DNA of 64,000 nucleotides from an uncultured Acidobacteriota bacterium (GCA_963796275.1 CAWCKY010000004.1:1568001-1632000); one strand, 5' to 3'; positions 2,312 through 63,931 are shown, numbered from the stretch's first letter. The notes: a model not told the origin generated them from the letters alone. Translations and numbers: made by a program.

Positions 2312-2640
2312 ATGCGATTCATACGCTGGTTCTACACCATACCACTGAGATTCCGCTCGCTCTTCCGCCACCGGCAGGCCGATCAGGAGTTGGACGAAGA
2401 GCTCCGATAACACATTGAACGGCAAATCGAAGAGTTCATCGACAAATGTATGACTTTAGAGGAAGCGCGTTATGATGCGCTGCGCGCTCTCGGAGGCATT
2501 GACCAACGCAAGGAGGAGTGCCGAGATATGCGACGTGTACGGTTGATCGAAGACATGGTCCAGGATGTCCAATATGGGCTGCGGACGCTGCGCCGCAATC
2601 CAGGCTTTGCCGCGTTCTCAATTCTCATTTCGGCGGCGAC
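2312..2640 (+). pseudogene. Truncated ADOP permease N-terminus (permease prefix domain)
   Basis: ATG at 2312 reads MRFIRWFYTIPLRFRSLFRHRQADQELDEELR*(TAA 2408)HIERQ..EEARYDALRALGGIDQRKEECRD..QDVQYGLRTLRRNPGF, then similarity stops. Confidence 0.8.
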
Positions 2641-2755
2641 TCAACAATCCGCTAGTAGCGCATATTATGCGTCAGTCGCGTCAGAACGAAATGCTCTGTG
2701 TCCTTGTGGTACCCGACATATTTCCTCCATGCCTTTTGTATTCTTCCATCGGTTT

Positions 2756-4306: not shown

Positions 4307-5275
4307 TCACCTGGCTCTCTTCTCTTTCGCCATCGCATCAAACTCAGCGATGTCTAATCCCCTTGCATCGAGATAGTTGTGAAGCTCACGGCGAGCCGCC
4401 ATCTTCTCGCGGGCGGAGGTCTGTTCGAGGACTTCGCCAATCTTCCAGGTAACGACAGTCGCCTGCCGGTCATATCCGCTTCGCCGATAATATGCGCCAT
4501 CGTTGTACTCCCATATCCAACCCACAGGGCAATTCTCCGAGAGGGCGATCATGGTCAGGTTCTTGAGCCGCCTCGAGCAGTATGAGTCCTCAGATTCAAG
4601 ATAGGGCCCGCGGTCTTCCATCCCGGCGTAGAGACAGACCTGTTCGTCAGCGTGTTTATCGATGCCAGGCTCGGTGAGAATGAATAACTTCATTAAGCGA
4701 TCAAGCTCTTCCTGCGAGCCCTTCTCAAAGTGGAGTTCGTGACCTTCAGCGGAAGGATCAAAGAACGGGTCTTCCATGAAGCGACTGATGCCGTCGCGAA
4801 AGTAATCGTGCAGGCGTTTGCTTATCGCATCGTGGTCGTTTCCGCATTCCTGCCAGACCTCCACCAGGTCGAGTTTGTGCTCAAAGAACTCATACGAGGC
4901 CCCTTCCTTGATGACGCCGATGCCGTCAGCCCGGAAGATTACAGAGACGCTTTCGAAGCTATAGTCGCAGGTAGTGGTCAGATGAGGGATACGGGCGTTG
5001 ACGAAGCCCACCCTCTCGACCAGCGATCCTTCGCTTTCGGGTCTGACCTCTACGAATATCCTGTAATCGACGGCTCTGAAAGTGAGGTCGGGATAGACCT
5101 CTTCCAGCTTATCGAAGATGTGGTTGTATTTGGGTTCTTTCGTTGGAGACTGGCCATATCGCTCGCGCAGGAAGTTGTGGAATTTCAGAAGCGACATCAT
5201 TTCGCGGTAATCCAATTCCGCTTCGCGAGCTTTCTCATTGAGGTCTGTAAAATCCATTATGTCCTCCAGCGGCAC
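4307..5275 (-). CDS. Hypothetical acidic protein (322 aa)
   Basis: Long ORF with protein-like composition, co-oriented with neighbours; no motif recognised. Confidence 0.65.
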   Translation of the reverse strand: MPLEDIMDFTDLNEKAREAELDYREMMSLLKFHNFLRERYGQSPTKEPKYNHIFDKLEEVYPDLTFRAVDYRIFVEVRPESEGSLVERVGFVNARIPHLTTTCDYSFESVSVIFRADGIGVIKEGASYEFFEHKLDLVEVWQECGNDHDAISKRLHDYFRDGISRFMEDPFFDPSAEGHELHFEKGSQEELDRLMKLFILTEPGIDKHADEQVCLYAGMEDRGPYLESEDSYCSRRLKNLTMIALSENCPVGWIWEYNDGAYYRRSGYDRQATVVTWKIGEVLEQTSAREKMAARRELHNYLDARGLDIAEFDAMAKEKRAR

Positions 5276-5440: not shown

Positions 5441-5713
5441 TCATGTTCTCTTCTTCGTGTGATCATCGAATTCAGGAGCAGAGGCAGGGATCAACGTCTC
5501 GTAAGGGTCGTCATCGAACATCAACCCGAGTGAGACCATTTCGATCTCAGGTTCTCGATCGGCCCGACGGTGGAGATTGATCGCGCAGATGGCATAAGCG
5601 GGTTCGCCGTTGCTGCGGTTCCGACATTCGAGCAGGGCGATGTCGCCGTTCCTGAAAGCCCTCTCCAAAGAATTAAAGTTAGTTTTGATCGCATTGGGAA
5701 TCGCCATCATCAC
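5441..5713 (-). CDS. DUF6117-like small protein of mobile elements
   Basis: MAIP...NFNSLERA..GDIALLEC.....GEPAYAICA....G..F..DPY..L.P pattern; GAGGAGG RBS. Confidence 0.65.
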   Translation of the reverse strand: MMMAIPNAIKTNFNSLERAFRNGDIALLECRNRSNGEPAYAICAINLHRRADREPEIEMVSLGLMFDDDPYETLIPASAPEFDDHTKKRT

Positions 5714-5720
5714 CTCCTCG

Positions 5721-6833
5721 TTATCGACAGGCTGCCAGAGCCAGGGGCATTACGATTGCCACGCAGCGATCCTGATCGGATGTGCTGATAGTGAACTGGG
5801 CCGGTGTCTCGCCGTTCTTGATCTCGAGTCGGATTTCGTCTTCATCGAGAGCGTTGAAGACGTCGCTGAGATAGCTTGCGTTGAACCCCACGGTTATCTT
5901 CTTTCCTTGATATCTGACTGGTATGGTCTCGCCCGCTTCTCCGCAGCCAGCAGACTGCGATGAGATATCCAGCTTCCCTTTGCCGATCACCAGTTTGATC
6001 GCCCGCGAGCGGCTATCAGCCATCAACGCGACACGTTTGACGGCCGGAGAGATAAGGTCACGATCGAGAGTCAAACGACTAAGATTCTCTTTCGGCAGAA
6101 CGGCCGAATAGTCCGGGTACCGGCCGGCTAGCAGACAGGAGACGAGTTCACGTTTGCCGATTTTGAAGTGGATGTGATTGTCATTCTTTCCGATCAGCAG
6201 CATCTCGTCGCAGGCGGCGCATATCTTTGCCAGTTCGACCAGGGCTTTCTTGGGTATGTTTGCGTCGACCACCGCATCGAATCTTCCTTCGTGCTCGACC
6301 AGGGCCAGGCGATGGCCGTCTGTCGCTACCATTCTGATACTTTCGTCGGAGATATCCAGCTTCACGCCGTGGAGGGAGTAATGCGATCCCTCCTGACCGA
6401 CAGCGTGAATGACGCGAGGGATGAATCGCGAAAAAAGCTCGGCCGGGGCCTCGGCGTATTCGCCCGAGTATTCTTGAACGCGAGGAAAATCCTTGGCGGG
6501 CGCTCCATGCAGTTTGAACCTTGAGCCGTTACTTGCGATCGTCGCCTGGCACTGATCGTTGGTCTTAATTTCGATCTCACCATTGGCGAGAGACTTCACT
6601 ATCTCCGCCAGCTTCCTGGCAGGCAGACAGATCGAGCCGCCCCCGCCCACACTGGCCTCGCATTCGGTCGTGACTGTAACGTCGAGGTCGCTGGCGCGCA
6701 TCGTGATTTTACCGGGGACAGTTTCGATCAGAATATGCGAGAGGATAGGAATCATCTGCTTCGAACCCGCCACGCCCTGCAGGTAGTAGAGCTCGCTCAA
6801 GAGCTGATCGCGATCGACCTTAATGTTCATCAT
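5721..6833 (-). CDS. dnaN: DNA polymerase III beta sliding clamp homologue (element-borne copy)
   Basis: IPILSHILI, ASDLDV, LPARKLAEIVKSL, MVATDGHRLA, GRYPDY, GFNASYLSD, IVMP; likely start at MMNIKV (6833). Confidence 0.9.
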   Translation of the reverse strand: MMNIKVDRDQLLSELYYLQGVAGSKQMIPILSHILIETVPGKITMRASDLDVTVTTECEASVGGGGSICLPARKLAEIVKSLANGEIEIKTNDQCQATIASNGSRFKLHGAPAKDFPRVQEYSGEYAEAPAELFSRFIPRVIHAVGQEGSHYSLHGVKLDISDESIRMVATDGHRLALVEHEGRFDAVVDANIPKKALVELAKICAACDEMLLIGKNDNHIHFKIGKRELVSCLLAGRYPDYSAVLPKENLSRLTLDRDLISPAVKRVALMADSRSRAIKLVIGKGKLDISSQSAGCGEAGETIPVRYQGKKITVGFNASYLSDVFNALDEDEIRLEIKNGETPAQFTISTSDQDRCVAIVMPLALAACR

Positions 6834-6950
6834 TGCCTCTTGACTCGCCCACCAAGCCACACGGATAGAAATTGACGAAGTGGACACAGGTAGAGCGGTC
6901 TTCGTCGTGTCTTATTCGTGTGATCTGATGGGCGAATCTTGTTAATGGGT

Positions 6951-8027
6951 TTAAACCACAGCAAACTCAGATTCGGTGAAGAGCGGTGCCGGAGTATTAG
7001 TGGTTGTGGCGTTGGGAGGGACGATCTCCGAAGTGAGAAGGCTGAGCGCCTCCCGTTCCAATCCGGCGATACCGGCTCGCACCTGATCCTGCCGCATTCC
7101 GAGCAGGTCCTGATACATCTCTGCCTTCGCTTTGAGCTGCTTGTAGATGACCAGGCGCTGCGCGATCGTCTTCTCTCGCAGGCGGTCGCCGGATTCGCTC
7201 AATCGGCCGAGGTCACCCCGCAGCGAACTGATCTCATCAAGCAACCCGGCGTGGATGGCTTTGGACAGGCCGCGCTTGGCCTCGACCGCGTCGGGAACGC
7301 CGAGTGCGCAGACAAACGGATCGAGCCCAGTCATCTGAGGGATAGCGGTGATCAGCTGGCGTAAACGAAGAAGCGAATCGCGCTCTCCTGACGGCACGAA
7401 ATAGACGCCGCCCGCCTGGCGAAGCGATACTGCACTCATTCCGTTAATGATCTCGCGCATCATCTCGGACAGGTCGCGCGCGATGAACAGGTCGCGGTAT
7501 TGCCGCCAGTAGGGTGCGAGTTCCTCCGTGACGCGGCGGCTCTCTCGCTGCGCGTCGATGACGCCCTCGGCATCGGTCGTGCAGATCATCTCGCCGGTCT
7601 TCTTGTGCAGCAGGATGCGCAGCGCAGTGCCGTACGACAGGCCTAGCACGCTGAAATCGATGTCCTCGGCGACGAGCGCATAGACGAGATGCTCACTGCC
7701 CGCGCGGTTGATGACGCGGATCAGCGTTCGTCTACGACCACTACCGTTCTCGTCCTGATCTTCGTCGCCCTGCTGAAGCTGCAAATTTCTGGCAATCCGT
7801 TGTTTAACCTTGATCCATTCTGCCAATGCTCGGCGCAATGCCACGCGCGGCGTCGGCGGATCGGGCAGATATTTGTCAAAGCCTGTTGCTTGCAGCGCCT
7901 GCTCCAAGTCAGGATGGCTGACGCGAATTCCTGCCAACCGCCAGAAGACTGTGTAGCCGATGAGCGGAAACTGCGAGGTTGAGGCTTCAACGCCGTTCAG
8001 ATCATGAATGTTCACGCCTTTATGCAT
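6951..8027 (-). CDS. DUF6744/DUF3150-like hypothetical protein
   Basis: IGYTVFW at the N-terminus, AVSLRQAGGVYFVP motif, coiled-coil C-terminus ending KAEMYQDLLG; strong AAGGAGG RBS. Confidence 0.6.
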   Translation of the reverse strand: MHKGVNIHDLNGVEASTSQFPLIGYTVFWRLAGIRVSHPDLEQALQATGFDKYLPDPPTPRVALRRALAEWIKVKQRIARNLQLQQGDEDQDENGSGRRRTLIRVINRAGSEHLVYALVAEDIDFSVLGLSYGTALRILLHKKTGEMICTTDAEGVIDAQRESRRVTEELAPYWRQYRDLFIARDLSEMMREIINGMSAVSLRQAGGVYFVPSGERDSLLRLRQLITAIPQMTGLDPFVCALGVPDAVEAKRGLSKAIHAGLLDEISSLRGDLGRLSESGDRLREKTIAQRLVIYKQLKAKAEMYQDLLGMRQDQVRAGIAGLEREALSLLTSEIVPPNATTTNTPAPLFTESEFAVV

Positions 8028-8325
8028 AAGACACCTCCTTTTTCGTCAGAGTATGCCGCCCGCTTCAACTTCTGCTTGGAGGAGACGGCTCTTGAATCTC
8101 ATGAGCCATGATGGAAGCGCCGTAACTGAATAGGGAATTGTGCCATGGGAACCATCCGACACGATCTCCCACGGTATTTTCAATCGGCAATAGGACGCTC
8201 ACGCGTACTTTGGCTTGTCTTTTCTGCCTTCAGTCATGGGCTGAAGGTGAAACAACGCGGGCTTTTATTTATATTCTCAGCCGGGGTAATTGAAAATTAT
8301 GGCACCGTTGGAGACAATTGGTTGA

Positions 8326-9299
8326 TGGTTAGAATAACACAACAGATAACAAAAATGCCTGAGATTACCAATATCATTACTGCACACCTAAACACCCCTA
8401 GAATACAAAGGCCGAAACTGGTTTATTTTGATAAAAATATATATAACCAGATAAAAAAGCAGTTTTTAATAACCAGTGCTGATTACGAGTTAATTAAGAG
8501 AGCCATCAATATTGGAGTTATCATAGTCCCCGGAAGCATCACTGTGTTAGAAGAGGCACTGGGAATATATCGCAGCAAATCTAAAGGTTCCCTAGCTATA
8601 GAGAAGCAGGTGCTATCTGAACTCATTGACTGGAAACTGTTCATCAAAGCACCCAGGGATCTATTATTCGATGAAATCATGGGGTATATCAATGATGTGC
8701 CTTTTAACCCGTTTACTAGATATCCAATCACGCCAGAAAAGTTATACACAGAGGATCCAAAACAGGTGGCAGATTGGATAAATGTAGAGGCTGAAACAGA
8801 AGCACAAAAACTCGCATTTATCGATGGGCTCAAACCAGTTCGAGAGCAATTCCGTAAGCAAATGTTACAGATTCCGAAACAAAACAGAAAAATGACATTT
8901 CCCAGACTATGGCAGGAGCGGGCACATGAGTTTGCGGCAGAGTACGTCTCCAGATATTGTGCACTCAAGAAGGTGCAGAAAAAAGGGATCGAAGGCTTAT
9001 TAGATCGGAGGGTGCTACGCCTTACCGTTGGGTACGATCTTGCTTATTTCTTCAAAAAATTCATCCTTGATGCAAAGATGTCATCTTCTGATTCCCGCGA
9101 TCATCATCATGTGGCTTTAAGCTCAGTCACAGACATCTTTGTGACACAAGATGGGCCATTGGCCAACCTGCTATCCCTTGTACCAATGGAAAATTATACA
9201 GTTTGGTCATATAGGCAATTTATGAGCTGGTTGCGCCTAGTTATTGACTCGCCCACCCGAATACCTAGCTCAGTCTATAAGAAAGCTTGGGTGCGGTAA
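8326..9299 (+). CDS. AT-rich PIN-like domain protein (putative nuclease)
   Basis: VYFDKNIY start motif, acidic DSRDHHH and TDIFVTQD motifs typical of PIN-like folds; start uncertain (8145/8326/8356). Confidence 0.5.
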
Positions 9300-9318
9300 C
9301 CTAGAAGCGGCGGGAGTG

Positions 9319-10939
9319 TCAAACGGTAGAAAAGATCACTTCGAGCGCCGGTAGATCGCCCCGCAGGTCATCAACGCGAAGGACCGCATCGCTGATTTGA
9401 TCCAGCAACGATTCGCCCTGATTCGCGGCCGATCAGGACGCCGTATGCGCGCATACCGCGTTCCGCCCTTCTCCTAGACCATTCCTTCTGCGATTCGGGA
9501 GAAACATCGCTGATTCCGTCGCTGACGCAGATCACGTCGGCCTTCTCGAACTGCGATCCGTCCACCAACTCCAGCGCCTTCTCCATCCACGGCTTAAAGA
9601 CAGTCCCGCCATTGAAGAAGAAACTGGCGCAGGCGATCACCTCGGCGGGCGTGGCTTCGCCTTTCGGAAACAGGTCGAGCCGCAAGTCGTCCGGGCCCGA
9701 GAAATGGATCACGGCCAGGTCGCGCTTCTGCAGTCTCGCGATCGAGAGCAAAGCCAGCATCACTGCCTTGGACCACACCTCGCCCGTCATCCCTCCGTAG
9801 TCGGTCGTCATTGAACCTGACTCGTCGATGGCGATGATGATCGGCCCCTGGCCTTCTGGCTCGTTGCCGATCAGGTCGTACTGCATCAGGCTGTTTTCGG
9901 CAAATTTGAGATAGAAGAGGTCTTCGAGGTCGGTATCGGCCAGCAATGCGATCTCGCTCGGCAGCAGACGTTCAATTTCACAGCCCGTGGTAATCGAAGT
10001 GATCTCGTCGGGCGGATGCTTGACGCGAGTCTTCTGTTGCTGAAGCGCGATGCGAGTGAAACGACCGCAGACGGCGGCGATCTGTTGCAGTTTCGGCGAC
10101 CGACCCACCTGTTGCGCAATGACGAGCTTCTCTTTTGTCGTGAGCGATCGCCCGCTCCCGCCGTTCTCCGTACCAAAGCCGATGTCATAGCCGCCGCCGA
10201 AGGCATTGATCGCGTCGTTGGCCTGCTCAACCTCGGCCATCGCTTCGGCCAGACCTCGTCGGACGGCCCGGCGCACATTCTGTTCACGCTCTTCGGTCGA
10301 CTCTTCCAGTTTGCGGTTCAGACGCTCCGCTTTCTTCTCTCTCTTTGCGGCGTCTGCTCTCGCTTGCATTGCCTCTCGTTTCAACTGTTCGGATCGTTCC
10401 TCATCCGGCGACAGCGCCGCCAGTTCGTCGAGCGCTTCGGCACGGGCGAATAACTGCTCGACCTCGCCGGCCAGTTCGTGCAGTTGGTTGAGATACTTGA
10501 TCGTCTCTTTATCGAGGGCGGTCACGGCTGAAGCCGCACATCCGATTGTCGCCATCGCGCTGGAGAGCGAATCTCCCACCGTGCCGCTCTCACGCATCTC
10601 GCGCCATTCGGTCGTGGAGAAGATATGCTCGATGATCCCACGGTTGATTTTGTGCGCCGGAGAGAGTGGCGCGACTGGAGCGATTCGCGGAACGCGTTTG
10701 TGGAAGCTCCAGAACAGGTCACGCAAAAGTGCCGGGCCGGTGCGGATCGTATCCGCCGTCTCATCAACCGTCCGAGCCAGCCGCGCGTACTCATCCGCCG
10801 CCTGCACAAACGTCTCTACATCGAATCCGTCGTGCGCTATCGCCTGGCTGCCATCAGTAATTGCGCCGGCAACACTTTTGGAGTCTGGCAGGTCGGCGAC
10901 AAGCTCCGGCTCCTGGATTTGTTTGCTGATTGTTTCCAT
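9319..10939 (-). CDS. vWA-domain protein (ViaA/CoxE-like) with coiled-coil; C-terminal frameshift near 9425
   Basis: MIDAS motif IIIAIDESGSM, GGTVF and ICVSDG; alternative frame continues to ..LEVIFSTV* at 9319. Confidence 0.85.
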
Positions 10940-10959
10940 AAGGTCACCTGATCGGATGG

Positions 10960-12182
10960 TTAAAGGACCAGCGAGGCGATCTCCTGCTTCATCTTCCGAT
11001 GGCCTCGATCACCTTATCGATTCGAGTCGTGTCGCGCCCCTGCTCGACTGCCTGCTCGCGCAGTTCCTGCAATTTCGCGCCGATCTGCTTGAGTTTCGTG
11101 TTGGCCTCGATCGCGGCCTGCATCTTCTGCTCCTCGCTCTGCGCGGCTTGCTGCGCGTCCATGCATTCACGATGGACCGACGCCGCCTGGTCTTCGTAAT
11201 CAACGGCCTTGGAGTTGAGCGGATTGCCGATGCGGGCGAGCGCCTTGCCGATCTCGGCCTGTTGTTCGGGCGATTGCCACAGGACGTGTTTGAGGAAGAA
11301 CAAGATCATCCTCGGTCACCGCGTCGCGCCCTTCCGCGAGCGCGTGAGCCTGCAACACGCCGAGCGCCTGTCCCCATCGCCGGTCGCTGATGATGATTCC
11401 CTTGCCAGCGAGATCCCTGCGCAATTGCTCAATCAGGTCGATCGCCGCGTTCGGAATGGCGACCTGCGCGGCAGCCTGCTGCAAAGCGGCAAGCTCTGAC
11501 TGCAAGAGCGTCATCGGCTGGCTGCCATTCGAGTTATGACCGTTATGCTTCGCCGGCGAGCGGCGCGGATGAATTTGGCGAAGCCGGTGTCGGTGACGTA
11601 GCCGACACGGAAGCGCAGCAGGAACCGATCCCAGAGCGCTTCGAGTTCATTGCCCTGCGGCATCTCGTTGCTCGCGCCGAAGAGCGAGATCAGCGGGACC
11701 TGCATCTCCTGGTCGCCGTTGTGGAAGACTCGCTCATTGGCGATCTTCAGCAAGGCGTTCAGGATCGCGCTGCTAGCCTTGAAGATTTCGTCGAGGAAAA
11801 CGAGTTCGGCCTCGACAAGTTTTCCAGCCGTGATGCGCCTGTACTCATCGCGCTTAAGCCCGCTGACCGACACCGGCCCGAAGAGTTCTTCCGGCGTCGT
11901 GAAGCGAGTCATCAGATATGCGAAGCTCCGCAGGCCCGAGCCGTTCTGCGGGCCGATGCGCTCGGCAAGATTCGTGATCAAGGCCGACTTCGCCGTGCCC
12001 GGCGGTCCAAGTACGACCAGGTGTTGCCGTGCGAGCAATGCGACCAGAGAAGCGCGAATGACCTCGTCGCGCTCGATCAGCGACGCCGCCAATTCGCGTT
12101 CGATGGTTTGCAGTTTATCGAGAGACGGTTTGATGGATGCGAGATTGAGTGTTGTGGACATAGTGATCATCCTTTCACTCAT
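10960..12182 (-). CDS. MoxR/RavA-like AAA+ ATPase, split by apparent frameshifts
   Basis: Walker A GPPGTAKS, TRFTTPEELFGP, Walker B FLDEIFKA, ASNE, DRFLLR, ISDRRW lid, across ORFs 11511-12182, 11200-11514 and 10989-11309. Confidence 0.88.
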
Positions 12183-13147
12183 CTGCGTGCCGCTTCCATC
12201 TTTCTGCTCGATGCCGTGAGGAGGTTGGCGTCGCCTTTTCGTGCGCTGTGCGCTATACGGATACGGATTGGCGGAGGAGATGAATCTCCAGGTGCTTCAG
12301 TCAGGGATTCATGCAAGTATCCTGGGCGTAATGCAAATTGAAGACTCCACAAAACGGCGAAGTCACGTGATTAGTGGTCAGGATAGATTGAATGCTGGCC
12401 TGTCGGTAGGTGGCTGCTAGGATTGTGTCAGGAACCGCTTGCGACCCAAGGAGAACTTTTGCAACCAGGCAAGGAGCTGTCTGGTCGCGGCGTCGTCAGG
12501 AAAGATGCGCACTGCTTCCCGCGCCGTCCACCACTACTCGGCAGTTGTTGGCTGCGGTCATATCGAGCGACTTATTAGTTATCAAGTGTTCTGTGACAGG
12601 ACGGAGTTGGGTTGGGCTCCAGGTTTTGGAACTTCAATTGTCTTGAGCGAATCGGATAGATAGAGGGTTTTACATTGATCGCCAGTTGCAATAAGCTTTT
12701 GATCGCTTATCCTAAACCCTAACAATGATCCGATGCTATGCGCTAATAAGTTTTTTGGATTACCTTCAACAGTTGGCTCACCAACATTAACCCACCTATT
12801 TACTGTCCCGGTGAACAAATCGGCGACTTGAACCAAATTAAAAGCCGCAGAGTCTAATGTCCTTACGTCATTCAAACTGACTTGCCCCGGTGAGAACAGG
12901 GCTTTAGCCCCAGTAAGTATTCGTCTCTCCATCTCAGCTATTTCAAGCTTGTCTGTGTCACTATCCGCATCCTTAGAGATGCGTACAGATATGGGGGGAC
13001 TGATTCTTCTTGCATCAAACTCAGACTTAATACCTTGGAGAACGGTCTCAGCAAATGCATCATATATCGCCTTTGAAAGTCGGTTTGATGGAATACCCTT
13101 TCTCTCTATTATGAGCGCGACAAAAGAATTAAGTTGTGTTTGTATAA

Positions 13148-14660
13148 CTCGACTTTAGATAAACGCGGCTGGGGCTTCCACCACAGCCGCGCCAGGGTTA
13201 GTTGTTATGCGTGACCATCAACAAACCAACCCAAGAACATATTAATTCACTGACGGACTTTCGTCAGCAAGTTTACGCGCTCTTTGAAAATCAGCACGAT
13301 GCGTTGTTTGAAATCATGGATGCAGTAATCCAGACACCGGCCGCGCGCTCCTATGCTGAACTCTCGCTAGCTCCTGCCTTCACCAGGAAGTGGCCTAGCC
13401 TTTATAGCGCACTCGCCGACGGGTCGATTGATGTTAAAGAGCTGCGGGAGCTATGTCTGAAGCAAATGCCGCGGACGCAAGCGCGAATCCATTTCGCCAT
13501 CGACGTGATGGCCGTTCGGCGAATGAATTCGCCAACCTTGAAGGATCGCGTCTTTTGCCACGGGGCGAAACGCGAGGTTTCAGGCACTGGTATCATTATC
13601 GGATTGCCGTACTCGATTCTCGCTTTCGTCAAGCAGCGCGGGGCGAGTTGGGCGCCCTCGCTTCATACGCAACGAGTCAAACCCAGTCAGAGCGCCGTGG
13701 ATGTCGCAGTAAGGCAAGCCAGTTGGATCGCCGAGCAGCTGACGGCAGAGACGAGCCCCGAGATAGCTCTGGACGGCAGCTATGGCAATCTCAAATTCTT
13801 TCGTGGGATACGCGGCGTGAGAAGTTTTGCGACGGCCCGAATGCGAAATGATAGGGTGCTCTACCAAATCCCGCAGACACCCGCTGAAGGCGAACCGATG
13901 AAGCCTGGACGTCCACCCAAATATGGCCAGGAATTCCGCTTCGCTGACCCCCAGACTTGGCCGACACCGGATGAAGTCCTCGAGTTTGAAAACGCGCAAT
14001 ATGGGCGTGTCCGTCTGCAATTGTGGTCAACCTTACGATTCCGGACGAAAAAGAATGAGATTGTTGATATCCCCGCCGTTGTCCGCTCGCAGATTCATTT
14101 GGAGAGGGACCAGCCGCCCGCACCGCATTGGTACGGAGTACATAATGGGACGACAGAAGAGACCACTCTGGGTCGCGTCTTTGAGTGCATCACGCATCGT
14201 TGGCCGATAGAGCCCGCCAACCGATTTCGCAAAGAAAGACTCTACGCCGAGCTGCCGAAAGTGCGACAAGCCGAGGCCAGCGATCTCTGGCTTCAGCTTC
14301 TACAAGTCATCGAGTGGCAACTTTACCTCTGGCATCCGGCGGCGAATGATGCTCATCTGCCGTGGCAAAAGCCTCTTGCTCTCGAGCAATTGACGCCCGG
14401 CAGAGTGATCCGCTCGCTGAGTGAGAATTTAAAACGAGTAGGCACGCCGGTTTCGGCTGTGCTACCACGAGGAAAATCTCCAGGCTGGCCTTCAGGCCGA
14501 GTCCGGACAGCGCCAACGACCTACCTTCTTGAGTCGATGAAGCGTAAAAAGGCGCTAGAAATGTCAAAGAACGAATGAAACAAATGAAATGTTGAACGAA
14601 AGTAGCTCTTTTCAACCTGATGGATAGTCAGGTTTTGGGAGAGCGTTATCTAAAGTCGAG
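13148..14660 (+). mobile_element. Insertion sequence (IS701-like DDE), 1513 bp, 15-bp TIRs, 5-bp TSD TATAA
   Basis: CTCGACTTTAGATAA (13148-13162) and TTATCTAAAGTCGAG (14646-14660) are perfect inverted repeats; TATAA at 13143-13147 and 14661-14665. Confidence 0.92.
13202..14578 (+). CDS. DDE transposase (IS701/DDE_5-like)
   Basis: DALFEIMDA, FTRKWPSLYSALADG, FAIDV, ALDGSYG, GRPPKYG, RWPIEPANRFRK, RGKSPGWPSG. Confidence 0.9.
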   Translation: MLCVTINKPTQEHINSLTDFRQQVYALFENQHDALFEIMDAVIQTPAARSYAELSLAPAFTRKWPSLYSALADGSIDVKELRELCLKQMPRTQARIHFAIDVMAVRRMNSPTLKDRVFCHGAKREVSGTGIIIGLPYSILAFVKQRGASWAPSLHTQRVKPSQSAVDVAVRQASWIAEQLTAETSPEIALDGSYGNLKFFRGIRGVRSFATARMRNDRVLYQIPQTPAEGEPMKPGRPPKYGQEFRFADPQTWPTPDEVLEFENAQYGRVRLQLWSTLRFRTKKNEIVDIPAVVRSQIHLERDQPPAPHWYGVHNGTTEETTLGRVFECITHRWPIEPANRFRKERLYAELPKVRQAEASDLWLQLLQVIEWQLYLWHPAANDAHLPWQKPLALEQLTPGRVIRSLSENLKRVGTPVSAVLPRGKSPGWPSGRVRTAPTTYLLESMKRKKALEMSKNE

Positions 14661-16700: not shown

Positions 16701-17864
16701 TCACCGTCCCTGCGAGCCGCTTCTGTTTTTCGAGCGAATTGGGAATGCGGTGGTCTCGGACAGGCGTGTCATCGCGATCTGTCGAAACCGGGGGCCGAGG
16801 CGATCGAGCCAGCGCTGGACGCTGATGGATGTGATCGGTAGATTGCGAACTGCGGCGTCGTCAACTCCCTTGACCCGGACATCCCACGAGGCAATGCGCG
16901 TCGTCGAGAGCGTCCTTTCGCGCTGTATCCGCCTAGCGACGAGCGCTGCCAGGTGAAAGCAGACCTTCTCGTTTGAATAATGATCTTGATCGAACGCAAT
17001 CCAAATAGGTCTGCCGTGTGTGAGTTCGATGATCGGGCTGTGATTGGCCGTTACGCATGGCGTCGCGACAATATACAACTCAGGATGGATGGCAGAGAGG
17101 ACATCCGCTTTGAGCACTCCCTCGACGATCACAATCCGGGCATCACGCGGAACATCAGCAAGATGGAACTTGAAATGTAACGGGCTGCCCGAGCCGGACC
17201 CGTGCGGCAGATCGGAAGAGGAGAGCCAGAGGTATCGCAACCCTTTCTTCGAAGCGATCGGCAGTCGAATCTGGCAGGCTTGAATGCGCCCCGAGTCATC
17301 GCGCACAGGGATAAGCAGTCTCGGGAGCAGATAATCTTTCGGCTTCCAGAGATGCACCCCCTGCCAGTCCTCCCAGAGCCCTGGAATGCCGCGCAGCGAA
17401 CCAACGCCCGGAAACTGGTCATTTATCTCCTGCAGGAGCAGCCGCGAGATGCGGTCTCGCTCTCTCGAACCTCCGGCCAGCCCTCCGTAATTGCCGATAT
17501 GACATTCGTTTAATCCGCGCGCAAGAAGCCCCGTCTCTCCGGCGATGAGCACGCCTGGATAGAGAGTGGCCGGGCTGAGTTCGATCAGTTTGCCGTAGAT
17601 GAAGTCGCGAATTTCGATAGAAGCGATCGGCGACTGCGGAAGATCGGCGGCGAGGCGAACGCCAATTCCCTTCTCTTCATGCGAATCTTCGTGAATGAAG
17701 ATCGCGCCGCCGTGGCTGTTGATCTTGCGCGCACCATCGCTTACGCGCATACACACGGAGAGAGTCTCGTCTCGGACAAACACGCACCAGTCCGGCTTTC
17801 CGCATATTCGGCAAGGCCTGCGCCGATTGACGCGGCAGAAGACGTTTGAAGTCGATGTCGGCAT
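16701..17864 (-). CDS. Primase-like protein (Zn-finger + TOPRIM, DUF3854-like)
   Basis: CRICGKPDWC..CMR Zn-binding region; LLIPVRD..GRIQACQIR; IVEGVLKAD and IAFDQD TOPRIM motifs; KGVDD. Confidence 0.75.
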   Translation of the reverse strand: MPTSTSNVFCRVNRRRPCRICGKPDWCVFVRDETLSVCMRVSDGARKINSHGGAIFIHEDSHEEKGIGVRLAADLPQSPIASIEIRDFIYGKLIELSPATLYPGVLIAGETGLLARGLNECHIGNYGGLAGGSRERDRISRLLLQEINDQFPGVGSLRGIPGLWEDWQGVHLWKPKDYLLPRLLIPVRDDSGRIQACQIRLPIASKKGLRYLWLSSSDLPHGSGSGSPLHFKFHLADVPRDARIVIVEGVLKADVLSAIHPELYIVATPCVTANHSPIIELTHGRPIWIAFDQDHYSNEKVCFHLAALVARRIQRERTLSTTRIASWDVRVKGVDDAAVRNLPITSISVQRWLDRLGPRFRQIAMTRLSETTAFPIRSKNRSGSQGR

Positions 17865-21335: not shown

Positions 21336-22103
21336 TCAGTTTGAACGCATATCTTTCAGCGTCAAAAGAACATCATCCAACCCATGATGAGCAGCCTCGA
21401 TACGTTTTGATCGCAGAACGACAAGGTCACCGTTCATCTCTGAAAGCTGGAATGGAAAAAAAGCTGGGGTGTTCAGCATCAGTCTCAACGCCGCTTTGCC
21501 CTCAGAAATGGCGTGCAAAGCCGCCTCGAATAATAGTATCACCAGCTTTTGGTCAGTGATGATTATTGGCAGAGCTTTCTCATAACATCCTTTAAAATCT
21601 GAATCTTTCAGTACTCCCCACGCAACAAAGGAACGGACAACATAGCGCGCGTTTCTGGCAACTGTCTCGCGATCGCCGTACTGCTGTTTCAATCTATTGA
21701 ATATTTGCGCCTGGGTAATTTGGTCTTGAAGGTTCAGTAATCGGCCTACCTGCCGGGCAACATTGAACCAAAATGGATAGGCAGCAGAGATGACAGCCCA
21801 ATGCAGCGGTAACCACATCTCTGGTTGCAACTGCCGCGCCATTGACAATGCGTCATCTCGAAACGCGATCAGGTCTTCATTCGGAGAAAACCATGAAGCG
21901 AGGATACTGATTGCCATTCCATATGTCTTACTTCCACGTTCCCCAATTCCCCCGCTCTGCTTTTGTGTGGACAAGTATTCATCCAGGTTCTCTCGTATTT
22001 CCGTTTCAGACATGCCTGCTAATAGCATGTGAAGAACTCGATCCATCCATTCCTTCTGGATCGTTTGCTTGATTCCTAATTTTTCATGCCGTTTGTCAAT
22101 CAC
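21336..22103 (-). CDS. brxA: BREX type 3 BrxA-like protein
   Basis: LHW....YPFW, YGDRETVARNARYVVRSFVAWGVL, PAFFPF; last gene of the BREX-3 order. Confidence 0.75.
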   Translation of the reverse strand: MIDKRHEKLGIKQTIQKEWMDRVLHMLLAGMSETEIRENLDEYLSTQKQSGGIGERGSKTYGMAISILASWFSPNEDLIAFRDDALSMARQLQPEMWLPLHWAVISAAYPFWFNVARQVGRLLNLQDQITQAQIFNRLKQQYGDRETVARNARYVVRSFVAWGVLKDSDFKGCYEKALPIIITDQKLVILLFEAALHAISEGKAALRLMLNTPAFFPFQLSEMNGDLVVLRSKRIEAAHHGLDDVLLTLKDMRSN

Positions 22104-24095
22104 CGCGCTCTCCTCTCAAACTTTACCAAGGGCACGATGACCTCTTCAATGGCAATGCCTCCGTGTCCGACAAGTGTTTCGTTAGGGTTCATAAATGCAT
22201 TATTGCCACCGGCAAGAAGCGGGAAATAATCCGATGGCAGCCCGACTGGTTGCCACTCAATAGCAAAAGTAAATTTTCCAGCAACCAACGCCCTGAGTTC
22301 AGGAGTCGGGTAGACCCGGACTCGTTCTCCACGAGTCTCGGCAATGACGCCTTCATAGGGACGCCCCTTGCCACGGCATTCGATATTGCCATGATCGGAT
22401 GTCAACCAAACTTGAAACCCGGAATCAAGCAAATAGCCAATAAGCGACGCCAGAAAGCCTCCCTTGCACCACTGTTTTATCTGGTTATGCATCCCGGCTG
22501 CACCAAGCTGCAGTGCCATGCATGATTTTGTCGACCGTGTCAACAACCACCCCGACCGCCCTGGTCCTTCCCGGATGCAGAGTGGAATCCAAAATATTAG
22601 CAACGTCGCCATCGCCCAGCCCTCGCTGGTAAGCGATATCCAAACGCGACAATCCAACTCCTTCCCAGAACTGCTTCCAAAGATTGCCCTCGTTATTGGT
22701 CGTATTGATCGACGAAGGAAAGTAGATCGGAGCCTTTCCAGAAAAAATCGCTTGTCTGGAGACAGAGGTCAGCGTCGGAATCCAGGCGAAGGTCGCAGAC
22801 TCACGCAATATAAAACTCTGATCCTGCTCCTGAAGAACCTGACGAATGGTGACCCACTGATCTAAGGCAAGTCCGTCGACGACAATTAACGCGATTCGGC
22901 AGTCTTTGGCCTCCTCCATCTCCCGAGCCAACCGCCGAGGGACATGGTGCAGCATAGCTGAATTGGCCGGCGGCAAATTAATCAGACTGGCGTAGTGTGA
23001 CTTAAGCCAATTGGCAAAGGTCACGTTTACATTTATGCCGGTTTGAAGAAAACGGGCCTTGACTTCCGCTTCAGAGCCGCAGTAAATCAAGGTTGCCAAT
23101 TCAGCCCATTTCAATGCGAATGCGGTCCAATCCGAATACCTGCTATCTACCGATGGCAAACCACTCTCTATGAGTTCTAACAGACGAGAGATCCGTACCC
23201 CTTCATCTTCTCTTTCAGTTCCGATTATGCCGCACCGAATCCAAGACTCTGTATCGATCGAGATATCCTGTCTCTTAACGGGTGTGAGTCTTCCCTCAAC
23301 GAACAGGTTGTCGATATAAACCAGAATATCCTGATGATCAAATGGCAAAACTGCAGGTCCTGGATACCTGAGAATAACCTCAAAGGAATTTTCACTAATC
23401 TGATTGTCGGCATCGAGTCTGTCAAGGAAAACGGGCCAGCGCTCCTGTAAGAAAGAAAAGAATGCTTCCCCATCGACCACAATTTCATCCAAAGGCCAAT
23501 CTTCGAACCCGCCATTCACCTTGAGCGACTGCACGAGCCGATTAGCCAGAACTTTAGGAATATCAATCTTTTTGTAGTGCAGACGAAGCAATGTCCGAAG
23601 CAGATCCACTTCTGTCGTGATCAACTCAGCCGCAACGCCAAAAACGTGGCGAAGAATGAAATCCCTGGTCGCGTTGTCGCCCATCCGATCGGGCACTGTC
23701 TTCTTCTGGGCATCGAACAGCACGTCCAGAAGACCGCGGTCAAGCTTCTCAATGACTGAATAACTCAGATTTGGGAAAAGCCTTCCAAGGTCAAAGGCTA
23801 GTCGTCTACCGGCCTGGAGCAAATCATATGGAAGCGCTTCGAACGCCGAATCTTGTAAGCGTAGAATGACTACCAGATCGGTAACCCCACCCCGATCCCA
23901 GATCGAACGATATTTCGATTCATAAGCGTATCGAAACTCAACTGGATCACTGAACTCAATCAGTTCAAAGCCACGCGCCCTCAGTTCGAAGGAAAGTTTC
24001 TCTTCGGTCAAAAGGCAATCCGGATCAGCGACTAGCGTAAGTTTGCTGACATTAGGAATGAATTCGTTCAAGATAGCGTCTCGCCAACTATTCAT
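22100..24095 (-). CDS. pglZ: BREX-3 PglZ alkaline-phosphatase-like protein (frameshift near 22500)
   Basis: LVADPDCLL, IVVDGLALDQW, WIPTLTSVSRQAIFSG, VDKIMHG, LTSDHGN, GHGGIAIEEVIVP. Confidence 0.92.
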
Positions 24096-27009
24096 TGAGC
24101 GCCTCCTTTAACGATGCGCATCAACAGCAGTGGCCGAATCTCCGGAACAATCTGCCTTGCAGATTCCAACTCTTTGCGCCATTCAGACTCCTCAGCATCA
24201 CATCGCACCAGCCGATGCTGGCGCACCTCGGGCAACCCAACACGATCAATGGCCTTTCGCCGTGAGCTAAAGGCGGTCGTTCCGCGATCTTCTTCCCGAA
24301 CAATAGAAGCCATGTGCTCCTGCTGCAAAGTATCAAATTGCTCCCGTCCTACCTGTTCCGCTGCACACATAAGCCGGTCAGAGGCGGCCAGTGATTCATC
24401 GTGCCCCATGGCATCCAGCACCTTCGGTTCCACTGTCTGCAGGGCATCCCAGATATGACGGGCAGTTGGTAGAAATACCTTGCCTTCTTCGCTCAAGAAC
24501 ATACTTAAGTAGCGCCTTCGAACTATAGGTATCTGAATCAGGTGGTTCTGCCTGTGCCTGCCAGCTTGTAAGCGGATTTCAAAAAGTCCCCAGTAACCTG
24601 ACAAACTCAAGGGCACCCCACTCAGGGACACACAGGGCAACGGCTGCCCAGCGGTGACTTGCGGCAGGTTGAGCGCCAATCCACGAACCTGGTTGTACTC
24701 CAGATTCAGCAAGGTGGCATCCGAAAGCCGGTCCGCCTCACGGGAACTAAACACGCACTTACGATACACTTGTCCATCCGGCCAAGTAAGCTCCCACCAC
24801 GAGCGCTTTCGTGTCGCCTTACCTCCATGAGAGTTCAAATAGCCAACTGTCATCCGCTCCACCCAATGTGGCAAAGGATGGAAACGCAAGCGTTCGGCTA
24901 CCTGCGCATCAGGCTCATCAGAAATACCATAGATGGAGGATGAATCCCGTATTTCGCGGATATCTTCTCGAAAACGGGTCGCCGTCTGCTCCACCGATGA
25001 TTCAATGCCATCCGGATTCAGTAAGGCTGAAGTGAAGACTTCCTCGAACAATTCGCCAGCTTGTGCCGAATCGAGCACATCGCCGGTCTTATCGATTCCA
25101 AACTCCTCGAAGATTACCGAGAGCTTTTTCTCCAGAACCTCCCGAACGCGGAATTCGACCGTGTTCTCAAAAACAAAATTGATGGCTTGCACCGTCTTTG
25201 ACTGGCCGATACGATCCACGCGTCCAATCCGCTGTTCCAGCCGCATTGGGTTCCACGGGATATCGTAGTTGACGATAATGTGACAGAATTCCAGATTCAA
25301 TCCTTCCCCACCGGCATCCGTAGAGACCAGGACACGAGCGTGCTCACGAAAAGCTTCCTGCGCGCGCTTGCGCTCGTCCATATCCATGGAACCGTTGAGC
25401 GTCACCACCGAAATACCTCTGGCCTCCAGAAATTCCCTTAACATCTCCTGGGTCGGTATGAACTCGGTGAAAATAAGCACCTTCAGATATTAGATCGTTC
25501 TGGTCAATTTGGAGCCGGTAAATCCATTCGATCAGCGCCTCTGACTTGGCATCGGGGCCAGCCTGTTCGCATCTTCTGGCCAAATCCAGCAGGGCGTCCA
25601 CCTGACCGCCTTCCCTTTTCAGAGTCGATACAGGGAACCTCAAAAACTCATCGAGAAGTTCTTGGCCATCAAGGTCGTACATCTCGTCATACCCGTCGAC
25701 AACACTAGCGCCATTTTGAAGCTCTTCAAGATGTAGACTAGCCTGCTGCCTGCTATCAATTAGTGCCTCAAGCCGGTGTTCTAGCGTGGTGCGGATCGCC
25801 CGGGTGCTGGAAATCACCAACCGCTGCATCAGAATCATCAGAAACCCTATGTGAAGTTTCTTCTCTCGTATGGCTTGGTTATATCCATCACGCACATAAT
25901 CGGTCACGGCATCATAAAGAAGTTGCTGGAGATGGTGTCGCGCTTCCCACGACACTCCCACCATCTGTGTGCGTCTGGGTTTGAATAGCGGCTTACCATC
26001 GGCATCTATGGCTTTCCGCTTTTCAGTGCGTATCACATAGGGGGCTACACGATCGCGAGAGACGCTATCTAAGTCTGGAAAGGCGTCGTTATCCAGCAGG
26101 TTCATCAGACGATAAAAGGCATCGGTTTTGCCTTGATGTGGAGTGGCCGAGAGTAAAAGCACATATGGAGCAGCGTCTGCAAGTCCCCGACCCAGCTTGT
26201 AGCGTGCTACCTGATCAGTGCTACCGCCCAGGCGATGAGCCTCATCCACTATTACCAGTATCCCAGCCCGCCGTCACCAGATCCTCAAAACGACTGCGGT
26301 TGTATTCCGTCACTCGTTGTAATGTCCAGCCACGCCGCTTGTCCAAGGGCTTTACAGAGTCCAGAGAAACTTCCACTTGATCAAACATCGCCCAAGGATT
26401 GTTCCGCAAGCGTGGAGCCTGGAGAGAGGGGGACATCATGTCGTCCCCGATTCTCACTTCATACTTTACATTCGAAATACGCTGCAGTGTGTTGATATCA
26501 TCACCCAGAATAAGCTGGAACCGTTCGTTGAAATGATTCAGCATCTCCGCTACCCATTGCGCAACCACCAGCGTTCGACGCGACAGGCCGCGCAGTTTAA
26601 GTTCGCGCATGATAAGCCCAGCTTCAATGGTCTTGCCTAAACCGACTTCATCAGCCAGCAGGTAACGTACGCGGTCGCCGGAGATGGCTTTAGACAAGGC
26701 GTGGATTTGGTGTGGCAGTGGAATGACTTTCGACTCCATAGGAGCCAGAAGCAGGGGGCCTTCAGAAGCGCTGGCACCACCCTCAAGAACCTCGGCGACT
26801 TTTGATGCCGCAGCGACATAGCCAATCCGATTGGCTTCAATATCTGGCTGAAGATCAGCGCTCAGCGGCCGAAGCGCAGAGCTAGGAATCCGGACTACAG
26901 CATCCTGATTCGGCAACCAAACACGGCAAACCGTCTGCCCCCACAAGATATGCTCTTCGATGACTTTACAGGCGCAGTTGTGGATCACGCTATATTGCCA
27001 TTGATTCAT
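24092..27009 (-). CDS. brxHII: BREX-3 SNF2-like helicase BrxHII (two apparent frameshifts)
   Basis: PLPHQ, LLADEVGLGKTIEAG, DEAH, LLSATPHQG, STDAGGEGLNL, WNPMRLEQRIGRVDRIGQ. Confidence 0.88.
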
Positions 27010-27017
27010 CGCTCTGG

Positions 27018-29979: not shown

Positions 29980-29982
29980 GTG

Positions 29983-32822: not shown

Positions 32823-32824
32823 TC

Positions 32825-36553
<3,729 letters not shown>

Positions 36554-36557
<4 letters not shown>

Positions 36558-46277: not shown

Positions 46278-46291
46278 AAGTCAGCATATCT

Positions 46292-53737: not shown

Positions 53738-53741
53738 AACG

Positions 53742-63890: not shown

Positions 63891-63931
63891 TGGCTTGGGA
63901 TGCCGCTGGTGATTTCGTTTTGGACAGCAAA

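What the first reader, a model, noticed from the sequence alone, without database searches (positions are those of the whole stretch)
5441..12182. Element-borne AAA-vWA-DUF6744-like-beta clamp-DUF6117-like module
Seen: five co-oriented genes: a RavA-like AAA ATPase, a MIDAS vWA protein with a long coiled-coil, a GGVYFVP-motif protein, a full-length sliding clamp and a small DUF6117-like protein, downstream of a primase-like gene. Known: MoxR AAA + vWA pairs are chaperone-like remodellers that act on a client protein, and similar pairs occur on conjugative elements and viruses with mostly unknown roles. Inference: this may be an uncharacterised three-component system, with the DUF6744-like protein as client or adaptor, coupled to the element's own clamp. 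It could act in establishment, replication or anti-defence after transfer.
Basis: partly seen in the sequence, partly recalled or inferred. Interest (0 to 1): 0.72.

Follow-up and report, generated by a model that had tools for sequence, protein, structure and literature searches.

The report
Decayed mobile-element MoxR-vWA-DUF6744-clamp cassette
The five genes are real and belong to an unstudied gene set (a motor ATPase, its adaptor, an unknown protein, often a private DNA clamp) that travels on phages, plasmids and integrated elements, but the copy in this window is broken.

Summary
The five co-oriented genes exist on the minus strand at 5441-12182: a RavA-like MoxR AAA+ ATPase, a ViaA-like vWA protein with a complete MIDAS motif, a DUF6744 protein, a bona fide DnaN clamp and a DUF6117 protein. 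The ATPase is broken by three indels, one a 10-bp deletion. The vWA gene has a +1 frameshift 37 codons before its stop. A foreign gene sits in the vWA/DUF6744 spacer. So this copy is probably dead. A second copy in the same genome has intact ATPase, vWA and DUF6744 genes but a frameshifted clamp.

The ATPase-vWA-DUF6744 trio is a conserved unit. It stands together in 20 of 25 related loci with 6 kb or more on both sides, and in Moorella phage MTATph1. DUF6744 lies beside the pair in 5 of 8 sampled plasmids from three phyla. The clamp is a frequent but optional fourth member.

DUF6744 folds confidently but matches no solved structure. It ends in an acidic disordered tail.

My best reading is a MoxR-vWA remodelling machine with DUF6744 as third subunit, working on the element's DNA replication or maintenance. 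That function is inferred, not shown. I found no paper on DUF6744. This scan has noted the same trio before on other DNA.

The parts
10963..12182 (-). RavA-like MoxR AAA+ ATPase, pseudogene in three frame pieces (11511-12182, 11200-11514, 10989-11309)
   Evidence: Pfam bpMoxR, AAA_5 and AAA_lid_8. Indels of -10, +1 and -1 against the intact 403-aa paralogue L003:6635-7846. RavA is the only PDB relative by sequence, E 7.5e-51.
9322..10939 (-). ViaA-like vWA protein with MIDAS motif; +1 frameshift near 9428 puts the last ~36 residues in another frame
   Evidence: tblastn pieces 10939-9416 and 9429-9322. Indel located. MIDAS residues conserved in 28 relatives. ViaA model NF008230 E 1.9e-24, below its cut-off.
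8145..9299 (+). Foreign opposite-strand gene in the vWA/DUF6744 spacer. It is cargo, not part of the module. Homologues are about 300 aa, so the true start is probably internal.
   Evidence: Absent from the paralogue, whose spacer is 482 bp. No Pfam family. 7 homologues besides the window's own protein, 43-53% identical over 76-77% of the query. GC 0.484 in this stretch.
6951..8027 (-). DUF6744 protein, 358 aa, intact
   Evidence: PF20529 E 1.4e-17. AlphaFold model with pLDDT 88.9. 1281 representative clusters at E<=1e-3.
5721..6887 (-). Accessory DnaN sliding clamp, intact (likely start at 6830)
   Evidence: Three DnaN Pfam domains. TIGR00663 at 268 bits, above its cut-off. 45% identical to the housekeeping dnaN, which lies beside dnaA on contig 3.
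5441..5713 (-). DUF6117 protein, 90 aa
   Evidence: PF19612 E 1.7e-13. Follows the clamp or DUF6744 in 22 related loci. Homology with the paralogous cassette ends here, at 5464.

Best explanation
What it is. This is a decaying copy of a mobile-element cassette. Its constant core is three genes: a RavA-like MoxR AAA+ ATPase, a ViaA-like vWA protein with a full MIDAS site, and DUF6744. In this acidobacterial-type lineage a private DnaN clamp and a small DUF6117 protein are added.

How it most likely works (inferred). By analogy with studied MoxR-vWA pairs (recalled: RavA-ViaA, CbbQ-CbbO, the MIDAS domain of Rea1), the vWA protein would grip an acidic peptide of a partner through its MIDAS metal site, and the ATPase ring would pull on it to remodel or release a complex. 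DUF6744 has a split ferredoxin-like alpha/beta part, a three-helix bundle and an acidic disordered tail. It would be the third subunit, either the client or the adaptor that brings the target.

Likely target (inferred). The company the trio keeps includes clamp, DnaE/PHP, DnaB-like helicase, primase, SF2 helicase, ParB and SSB genes. So the target is most likely a protein-DNA assembly used in the element's replication, establishment or maintenance. In this lineage the tail carries an xLF motif that could dock on a sliding clamp.

State of this copy. The ATPase has three indels and the vWA gene one, so the window copy can hardly work by itself.

Shown: gene identities, breaks, co-occurrence, fold model. 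Inferred: subunit contacts, the target, and any tie to the clamp.
For: Gene identities.

Breaks in this copy.

A movable unit: a second copy in the same genome shares homology exactly from the ATPase start to the DUF6117 end, at 74-85% nucleotide identity.

The trio together:
- 20 of 25 loci with 6 kb or more on both sides.
- Moorella phage MTATph1: ATPase 39.5% and vWA 28% identical, DUF6744 21%.
- Of 8 sampled plasmids with a vWA homologue, all 8 have an AAA gene beside it and 5 have DUF6744, across Bacillota, Cyanobacteriota and Actinomycetota.
- Three phage contigs (L020, L026, L027) put DUF6744 beside, or in L026 about 3 kb from, a different P-loop ATPase and a DUF2201 vWA-like protein, which looks like partner displacement.

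Intact machinery in relatives: MIDAS and Walker motifs are at least 95% conserved.

Replication company:
- Clamp in 10 of 14 well-flanked metagenome loci.
- Order dnaN-DUF6744-AAA-vWA on the Alicyclobacillus plasmid.
- Gene clusters named from one Pfam-scanned member each (PHP/UDG, SF2 helicase, DnaB-like, Toprim, HTH_36, ParB) in 10 of 15 viral loci.
- SSB beside the trio in Pseudanabaena.

The tail: 56 of 70 tails are net acidic. [LM]F occurs in 9 of 70 tails against 2.8 +/- 1.5 in shuffles, with 3 of 2000 shuffles reaching 9. Among loci, clamp with motif 12, clamp without motif 4, no clamp with motif 2, no clamp without motif 12.

The logic that a vWA domain captures a peptide and MoxR releases it in altered form is stated for ternary systems in PMC7159879 (passages seen).
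Against: No experiment or paper ties any member of this trio to a function.

The clamp is optional. 11 of 22 loci with DUF6117 have no clamp between it and DUF6744. 7 of 8 sampled plasmids have no clamp within 6-7 kb.

The [LM]F tail motif is in only 9 of 70 diverse tails. Its link with clamp genes rests on two or three clades: at 60% identity the groups are 3, 2, 0 and 8. One counted motif (L015) lies in a helix, not a tail. Clamp-less close relatives such as L006 and L033 keep the motif.

Three of 8 plasmids and the Bacillus phage 0305phi8-36 locus have the ATPase-vWA pair without a detectable DUF6744 nearby.

I did not annotate every neighbour gene, so virion or transfer genes close by cannot be excluded.

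The window copy is broken, and whether the second copy complements it is unknown.
Confidence: 0.5

Rival explanations
1. Assembly chaperone. The MoxR-vWA pair with DUF6744 helps fold or assemble a large structure of the element, such as a virion part or a transfer apparatus, and has nothing to do with DNA.
For: PMC7824862 (passages seen) proposes a virion-assembly role for a MoxR-vWA pair, with a peptidase-fused vWA, in jumbo phages. It cites the MoxR-vWA system needed for tail development of Acidianus two-tailed virus. The DUF2201-type pair beside DUF6744 in some phage contigs is of that peptidase-fused kind. Bacillus phage 0305phi8-36 annotates its pair as a 'metalloprotein chaperonin'. On a Nocardia plasmid the trio lies beside a type IV coupling protein gene.
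Against: The trio occurs on plasmids typed non-mobilizable and in integrated elements. There, the neighbour clusters I sampled within 10 kb include ParB, a methylase-helicase, a GHKL-type ATPase and a clamp, and none of the ten cluster representatives scanned matched a structural-protein family. In phage contigs it sits among replication genes. I did not annotate all neighbours.
Confidence: 0.15
2. Conflict system. The trio is a defence or counter-defence device of the MoxR-vWA ternary kind, in which DUF6744 senses an invader or a host immune protein and the ATPase switches an effector on or off.
For: The ATPase's best Pfam model is the MoxR domain of ternary conflict systems (PF20030). PMC7159879 describes MoxR-vWA systems with a variable third component. 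The window copy lies in an island with BREX-like, type I restriction and XPB/DUF790 genes. The Alicyclobacillus plasmid neighbourhood lists an AcrIIA9-family gene and toxin-antitoxin genes. The vWA/DUF6744 spacer collects cargo, including an Argonaute-like gene.
Against: No member hits a PADLOC defence model beyond one weak match, mad8 at E 1.1e-4. Here the vWA domain is the C-terminal end of its protein, so there is no fused effector, whereas effectors are fused to the C-terminus of the vWA core in the described systems. No nuclease, peptidase or other effector is a constant neighbour. DUF6744 is well conserved, not rapidly diversifying: mean column identity is 51-55% in alignments A2 and A5.
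Confidence: 0.15
3. The window locus is only a dead remnant. The cassette was inactivated after integration and now has no role in this genome, whatever the family does elsewhere.
For: Four frame-breaking indels in two of the three core genes. An IS transposase lies upstream, and the upstream backbone seen in relatives (methylase-helicase and a 554-aa protein) is absent. A foreign gene sits in the spacer. The ATPase is a single ORF in all 39 other loci that hold it.
Against: DUF6744, the clamp and DUF6117 are still intact here. The second copy has intact ATPase and vWA genes but a broken clamp, so the two copies could complement each other. I could not check the indels against reads: no public run holds more than 0.15 of the sampled words.
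Confidence: 0.6

Closest known systems
E. coli RavA-ViaA (MoxR AAA+ ATPase with its vWA partner)
   Same: RavA is the only solved relative of the ATPase by sequence (E 7.5e-51, residues 16-302 on RavA 12-291), and the ATPase has a RavA-type lid domain. The vWA protein matches the ViaA model over its vWA part (E 1.9e-24) and has a full MIDAS motif. The two genes are adjacent.
   Different: Both score far below the equivalog cut-offs (223 against 681 bits; 86.7 against 500 bits). The ATPase match ends at position 340 of the 498-position RavA model, so the C-terminal part of RavA is not matched (recalled: that part holds the LARA domain that binds LdcI). The pair is carried on mobile elements with a constant third gene, DUF6744, which RavA-ViaA lacks.
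MoxR-vWA-centred ternary conflict systems (VMAP, iSTAND and FtsH types; Kaur et al. 2020, PMC7159879)
   Same: A MoxR ATPase, a vWA protein and a constant third protein encoded together. The best Pfam model for the ATPase comes from this work's beta-propeller variant (PF20030).
   Different: The third component here is DUF6744, not VMAP, iSTAND or FtsH. The vWA protein has no effector domains fused to its C-terminus. The carriers are phages, plasmids and integrated elements rather than chromosomes of multicellular bacteria (passages seen).
Phage and archaeal-virus MoxR-vWA pairs (jumbo phages of group 2.2; Acidianus two-tailed virus)
   Same: A virus-borne MoxR ATPase beside a vWA protein. The peptidase-fused DUF2201 type stands next to DUF6744 in some phage contigs.
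   Different: Those pairs are proposed or shown to act in virion assembly. No DUF6744 or clamp is mentioned in the passages I saw.
Bacterial sliding clamp DnaN
   Same: Three DnaN domains, TIGR00663 above its cut-off. The TDGHRL stretch and the C-terminal MP are conserved in 13 element clamps. That these positions form the peptide-binding pocket is recalled, not tested.
   Different: It is an extra copy, 45% identical to the housekeeping dnaN beside dnaA, and it is carried inside the cassette.

Membership tests
MoxR-class AAA+ ATPase, RavA-like | AAA+ core with Walker A and B motifs and a RavA-type lid domain | tested here: met
   PF20030, AAA_5 and AAA_lid_8 hits. G52/P54/G55/K58 and D124/E125 are at least 95% conserved in 23 relatives. 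RavA is the only PDB relative.
MoxR-class AAA+ ATPase, RavA-like | RavA equivalog: full-length match including the C-terminal part of RavA | tested here: not met
   NF010054 scores 223 bits against a cut-off of 681. The match covers model positions 9-340 of 498.
MoxR-class AAA+ ATPase, RavA-like | One open reading frame in this window | tested here: not met
   Three frame pieces, with indels of -10, +1 and -1 against the intact paralogue.
vWA / ViaA-like MIDAS protein | MIDAS motif DxSxS ... T ... D | tested here: met
   DESGS is in the window protein. D373, S375, S377, T447 and D475 are at least 95% conserved in 28 relatives.
vWA / ViaA-like MIDAS protein | ViaA equivalog score | tested here: not met
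   NF008230 scores 86.7 bits against a cut-off of 500. Pfam VWA_2 scores 20.2 bits against a cut-off of 27.
MoxR-vWA ternary conflict systems (Kaur et al. 2020) | Third component is VMAP, iSTAND or FtsH | tested here: not met
   The third gene is DUF6744 (PF20529). System definitions taken from passages of PMC7159879.
MoxR-vWA ternary conflict systems (Kaur et al. 2020) | Variable effector domains fused to the C-terminus of the vWA core | tested here: not met
   The vWA domain lies at residues 367-475 of 522, and nothing follows it. The same layout holds in 28 relatives of about 540 aa.
DUF6744 (PF20529) | Score above the Pfam gathering cut-off over most of the model | tested here: met
   64.1 bits against a cut-off of 27, residues 6-314 on model positions 3-292 of 314.
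DnaN sliding clamp | Three DnaN domains and the TIGR00663 equivalog score | tested here: met
   PF00712, PF02767 and PF02768. TIGR00663 scores 268.1 bits against a cut-off of 137.65.
DnaN sliding clamp | Forms a ring on DNA and binds partner peptides | not testable with these tools
   Only conservation of the TDGHRL and MP positions was seen.
DUF6117 (PF19612) | Score above the Pfam gathering cut-off | tested here: met
   50.7 bits against a cut-off of 27.

The most novel reading that the evidence does not exclude
The MoxR-vWA-DUF6744 trio is a clamp-directed remodelling machine of mobile elements. DUF6744 would dock on a sliding clamp, the element's own or the host's, through its C-terminal tail. 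The vWA-ATPase pair would then strip, open or reposition clamp-bound complexes on the element's DNA. That would be an ATP-driven way of handling clamps unrelated to the RFC-type clamp loader.
Probability: 0.12. Interest if true: 0.85.

Novelty: new variant of a known kind. Interest (0 to 1): 0.5.

Why it matters
MoxR-vWA pairs are widespread, and few have a known client. Here the pair has one constant, well-folded and wholly unstudied partner, DUF6744, with 1281 sequence clusters at 50% identity. The trio is spread over phages, plasmids and integrated elements of several phyla, and the fold also appears in an archaeal tailed virus.

If it acts on replication or clamp-bound complexes, it would be a new accessory machine of mobile-element DNA replication. 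It could be tested on tractable plasmids and phages.

For this window in particular the value is smaller. It shows an acidobacterial lineage with a canonical private clamp, two copies in one genome each broken in a different gene, and a cargo hot spot inside the cassette.

The scan has already noted the trio on other DNA, so this is a further member rather than a first sighting.

Tried and rejected
Complex prediction of a clamp dimer with the DUF6744 tail (residues 316-358): no verdict. The median score was 0.40, but a control scored 0.62, so it counts neither for nor against binding.

Fold searches.
- Foldseek against the PDB found nothing at E<=0.001 for the whole DUF6744 model or for its N-terminal 247 residues.
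- VIA-align matched only generic three-helix bundles for residues 246-341 (Z up to 11.7).
- For the N-part it matched only weak ferredoxin-like, Cas2-like cores (best Z 6.1, rmsd 2.7, 69 residues aligned). Both are within the range of common arrangements.
- A PDB profile search with A1 gave nothing meaningful: best hit prefoldin beta, E 0.0029.
- The ESM Atlas gave no usable hit.

Fused forms. No DUF6744 proteins of 628-2000 aa were found, which the tool itself calls weak evidence.

Direct tblastn with the window's DUF6744. No plasmid match at E<=1e-5 and one phage match. The plasmid members appeared only through the vWA query and an HMM.

PF20529 in 400 other genomes of the phylum: one weak, sub-threshold match.

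Reads. No public run holds more than 0.15 of the sampled words of 9300-12200, so I laid no reads, and I read no habitat from these small shares.

Island borders. I looked for a split permease gene and for direct repeats. I found only short N-terminal permease fragments and no clear ends.

Viral scan. The first attempt, with the 85-sequence alignment, failed for lack of a conserved stretch. I repeated it with a 10-sequence alignment.

Literature. Searches for 'DUF6744' and 'DUF6117' returned 0 papers each. 'MoxR' + 'von Willebrand' + 'sliding clamp' + 'phage' returned 0. 'MoxR' + 'integrative and conjugative' + 'von Willebrand' returned 0.


Full report
**Observation**

- The ATPase matches PF20030 (bpMoxR, E 8.8e-59), AAA_5 and the RavA-type lid AAA_lid_8. 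It is spread over three ORF pieces.
- The vWA protein (522 aa as an ORF) has only a weak Pfam VWA_2 hit but carries DESGS.
- The 358-aa protein is DUF6744 (PF20529, 64.1 bits, cut-off 27), with the GGVYFVP motif.
- The clamp has all three DnaN domains and passes TIGR00663 (268 bits, cut-off 137.65).
- The 90-aa protein is DUF6117 (50.7 bits, cut-off 27).
- The 'primase-like gene' is not well founded. The 387-aa ORF at 16701-17864 has a sub-threshold DUF3854 match and is separated from the cassette by an IS transposase (13202-14578, DDE_5).

**State of this copy**

The same genome (9.46 Mb, 7 contigs) holds a second copy on contig 3. BLASTN shows that homology runs exactly from the ATPase start to the DUF6117 end, at 74-85% identity. 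It is interrupted only in the vWA/DUF6744 spacer.

Against that copy's intact 403-aa ATPase, the window gene has a 10-bp deletion near 11555, a 1-bp insertion near 11305 and a 1-bp deletion near 10996. The first frame stops at 11511. The vWA gene has a 1-bp insertion near 9428 that shifts the last ~36 residues.

The spacer holds an opposite-strand 384-aa ORF (8145-9299). This ORF has about 300-aa homologues elsewhere but no family. The paralogue has a 482-bp spacer instead.

The contig-3 copy has a 1-bp frameshift in its clamp. In all 39 other loci that hold the ATPase it is a single ORF.

A 10-bp deletion is unlikely to be a read error, but I could not check reads, because no public run holds the stretch. 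The genome's housekeeping dnaN lies beside dnaA on contig 3 and is 45% identical to the window clamp.

**Is the module real beyond this genome?**

DUF6744 has 251 close relatives in the 90% clusters and 1281 representative clusters at E<=1e-3. It is nevertheless rare per genome: one weak hit in 400 other genomes of the phylum.

I fetched 5 genome loci, 15 viral loci and 80 metagenome loci around DUF6744 relatives. I mapped the five families with iterated HMMs.
- Of 25 loci with at least 6 kb on both sides, 20 hold both the ATPase and the vWA gene (genome 1 of 2, phage record 1 of 1, viral 5 of 8, metagenome 13 of 14).
- Moorella phage MTATph1 has DUF6744, the ATPase (39.5% identity) and the vWA protein (28%) within 4 kb.
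- A tblastn with the vWA protein found 66 plasmids and 13 phage records.
- Of 8 plasmids I inspected, all have an AAA gene beside the vWA gene. Five have DUF6744 as well: Alicyclobacillus, Pseudanabaena, Streptomyces, Brevibacillus and Nocardia.
- Chroococcidiopsis, Lysinibacillus, Clostridium and the Bacillus phage 0305phi8-36 locus do not, within 6-7 kb.
- In L020 and L027, DUF6744 directly follows a different P-loop ATPase and a DUF2201 (peptidase plus vWA-like) protein. L026 carries the same pair about 3 kb upstream on the other strand.

So the trio is a conserved unit with some partner displacement.

**The clamp and DUF6117**

A clamp gene is present in 10 of 14 well-flanked metagenome loci. 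It lies either after DUF6744, before the ATPase, or a few kb away. On the Alicyclobacillus plasmid the order is dnaN-DUF6744-AAA-vWA.

The clamp is dispensable, though. In 11 of 22 loci with DUF6117, that gene follows DUF6744 directly. Only 1 of the 8 plasmids has a clamp nearby.

**Surroundings**

In the acidobacterial-type elements the backbone around the cassette is as follows:
- a large methylase-SNF2 helicase protein (1222-1763 aa);
- a 554-aa relative of its helicase part;
- then the cassette;
- a GHKL-type ATPase (about 600 aa);
- ParB-like proteins (about 595 aa);
- a CxxCxxCC protein.

In viral loci the neighbours include PHP/UDG polymerase parts, SF2 helicases, DnaB-like helicases, Toprim primases, HTH_36 proteins and ParB. 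Such gene clusters occur in 10 of 15 viral loci. Each cluster is named from one Pfam-scanned member. One viral ATPase carries an intein.

The window itself is a mosaic island: BREX-like genes with a split PglZ, a type I restriction system, an XPB/DUF790 pair, two tyrosine recombinases and an IS. I could not define its ends.

**The proteins**

RavA is the only solved relative of the ATPase (E 7.5e-51). The RavA and ViaA equivalog models both match far below their cut-offs, and the ATPase match stops at position 340 of the 498-position RavA model. Walker and MIDAS residues are at least 95% conserved in relatives.

DUF6744 folds with pLDDT 88.9. Its parts are:
- an alpha/beta part whose core strands (about 21-48 and 200-247) resemble a ferredoxin-like unit, split by an inserted sheet-and-helix unit;
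- a three-helix bundle (246-341);
- a disordered tail.

No solved structure matches in an informative way. Four uncharacterised viral proteins match at E about 1e-14 or better, one from Haloarcula vallismortis tailed virus 1.

Seventy of 85 diverse members have a tail of 8 or more residues, and 56 of these are net acidic. In this lineage the tail holds PAPLF or ends in PMLF. [LM]F occurs in 9 of 70 tails against 2.8 expected from shuffles. It goes with a clamp gene in the locus (12, 4, 2, 12), but the groups are few and related. The resemblance to clamp-binding peptides is recalled knowledge, not a test.

**Mechanism**

The established logic of MoxR-vWA pairs is that the vWA MIDAS site captures an acidic peptide and the ATPase ring remodels or releases the bound protein. 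I took this from passages of PMC7159879 and from recalled work on RavA-ViaA, CbbQ-CbbO and Rea1.

On that logic I read DUF6744 as the third subunit, either client or adaptor. I read the target as a protein-DNA assembly of the element's replication or maintenance. This rests on gene company only.

Rival readings are an assembly chaperone, as proposed for other phage MoxR-vWA pairs (PMC7824862, passages), and a conflict system of the ternary kind. Against the second:
- the vWA protein has no fused effector;
- there is only one weak PADLOC hit;
- DUF6744 is well conserved.

**Novelty**

I found no paper on DUF6744 or DUF6117 and none joining MoxR, vWA and a clamp or conjugative elements. Supplements were closed.

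Earlier notes of this scan describe the same trio, with or without a clamp, in planctomycetes and phages. They agree with what I found independently. One gave the lead to Bacillus phage 0305phi8-36, which I checked: the pair is there, and DUF6744 is not nearby.

I rate this a new variant of a known kind, namely a MoxR-vWA ternary system with a new third component on mobile elements. The window's own copy is a decayed example.

Noticed in passing
window 8028-9370; loci L034, L047, L048, L063, L084, L085, L094, L099, L107: The spacer between the vWA and DUF6744 genes is a cargo hot spot. It ranges from about 100 bp to 4.3 kb and holds different, mostly opposite-strand genes in different elements: a Piwi-domain (Argonaute-like) protein with a partner, a Rad52-like protein, a GNAT, GrpB, and a beta-lactamase-fold protein beside an ORF whose N-terminus reads like a MacB-type permease (by eye, not scanned). 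In L039 three MacB-like genes fill the 10 kb upstream of DUF6744.
   Followed up: partly
G000 contig 3, 24620-30597 (L003 6620-12597): Second copy of the cassette in the same genome. It has intact ATPase, vWA and DUF6744 genes but a 1-bp frameshift in the clamp, so each copy is broken in a different gene. Its upstream flank looks chromosomal (hemerythrin, BrkB, NmrA-like, a photolyase fragment).
   Followed up: partly
window 21336-37087: BREX-like cluster: PglZ split into two ORFs (22100-22657 and 22485-24095), a helicase C-terminal piece, an AAA_15/DUF3696 ATPase, a DNA methylase and a 1200-aa DUF6079 protein. Some of these genes also look broken.
   Followed up: no
window 45066-47758 and 49346-52711: An XPB-like helicase next to a DUF790 protein, and a type I restriction-modification methylase with a specificity subunit. 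Tyrosine recombinases lie at 41997-43172 and 62709-63989.
   Followed up: no
window 2549-2677 and 56663-56731: Short N-terminal fragments of MacB-type permease genes beside full-length ones (3-2297, 53685-56414). They may be scars of insertions, but no clear island ends were found.
   Followed up: partly
L015 5624-7849; L022 3542-5956: A viral contig's MoxR ATPase carries an intein (Hint plus LAGLIDADG homing endonuclease). An SF2 helicase in another viral contig does too.
   Followed up: no
L020 7253-10801; L027 815-4373; L026 1909-4346 and 7280-8230: In L020 and L027, DUF6744 directly follows a different P-loop ATPase (about 400 aa, no Pfam hit for the L020 member, the only one scanned; Walker A strict in L020, degenerate in L026 and L027) and a DUF2201 peptidase/vWA-like protein. 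L026 carries the same pair about 3 kb upstream on the other strand. This is an analogous trio with swapped partners.
   Followed up: partly
window 4307-5275: The 322-aa ORF just after DUF6117 has no family, but it recurs in the same position in one related metagenome locus (L080).
   Followed up: no
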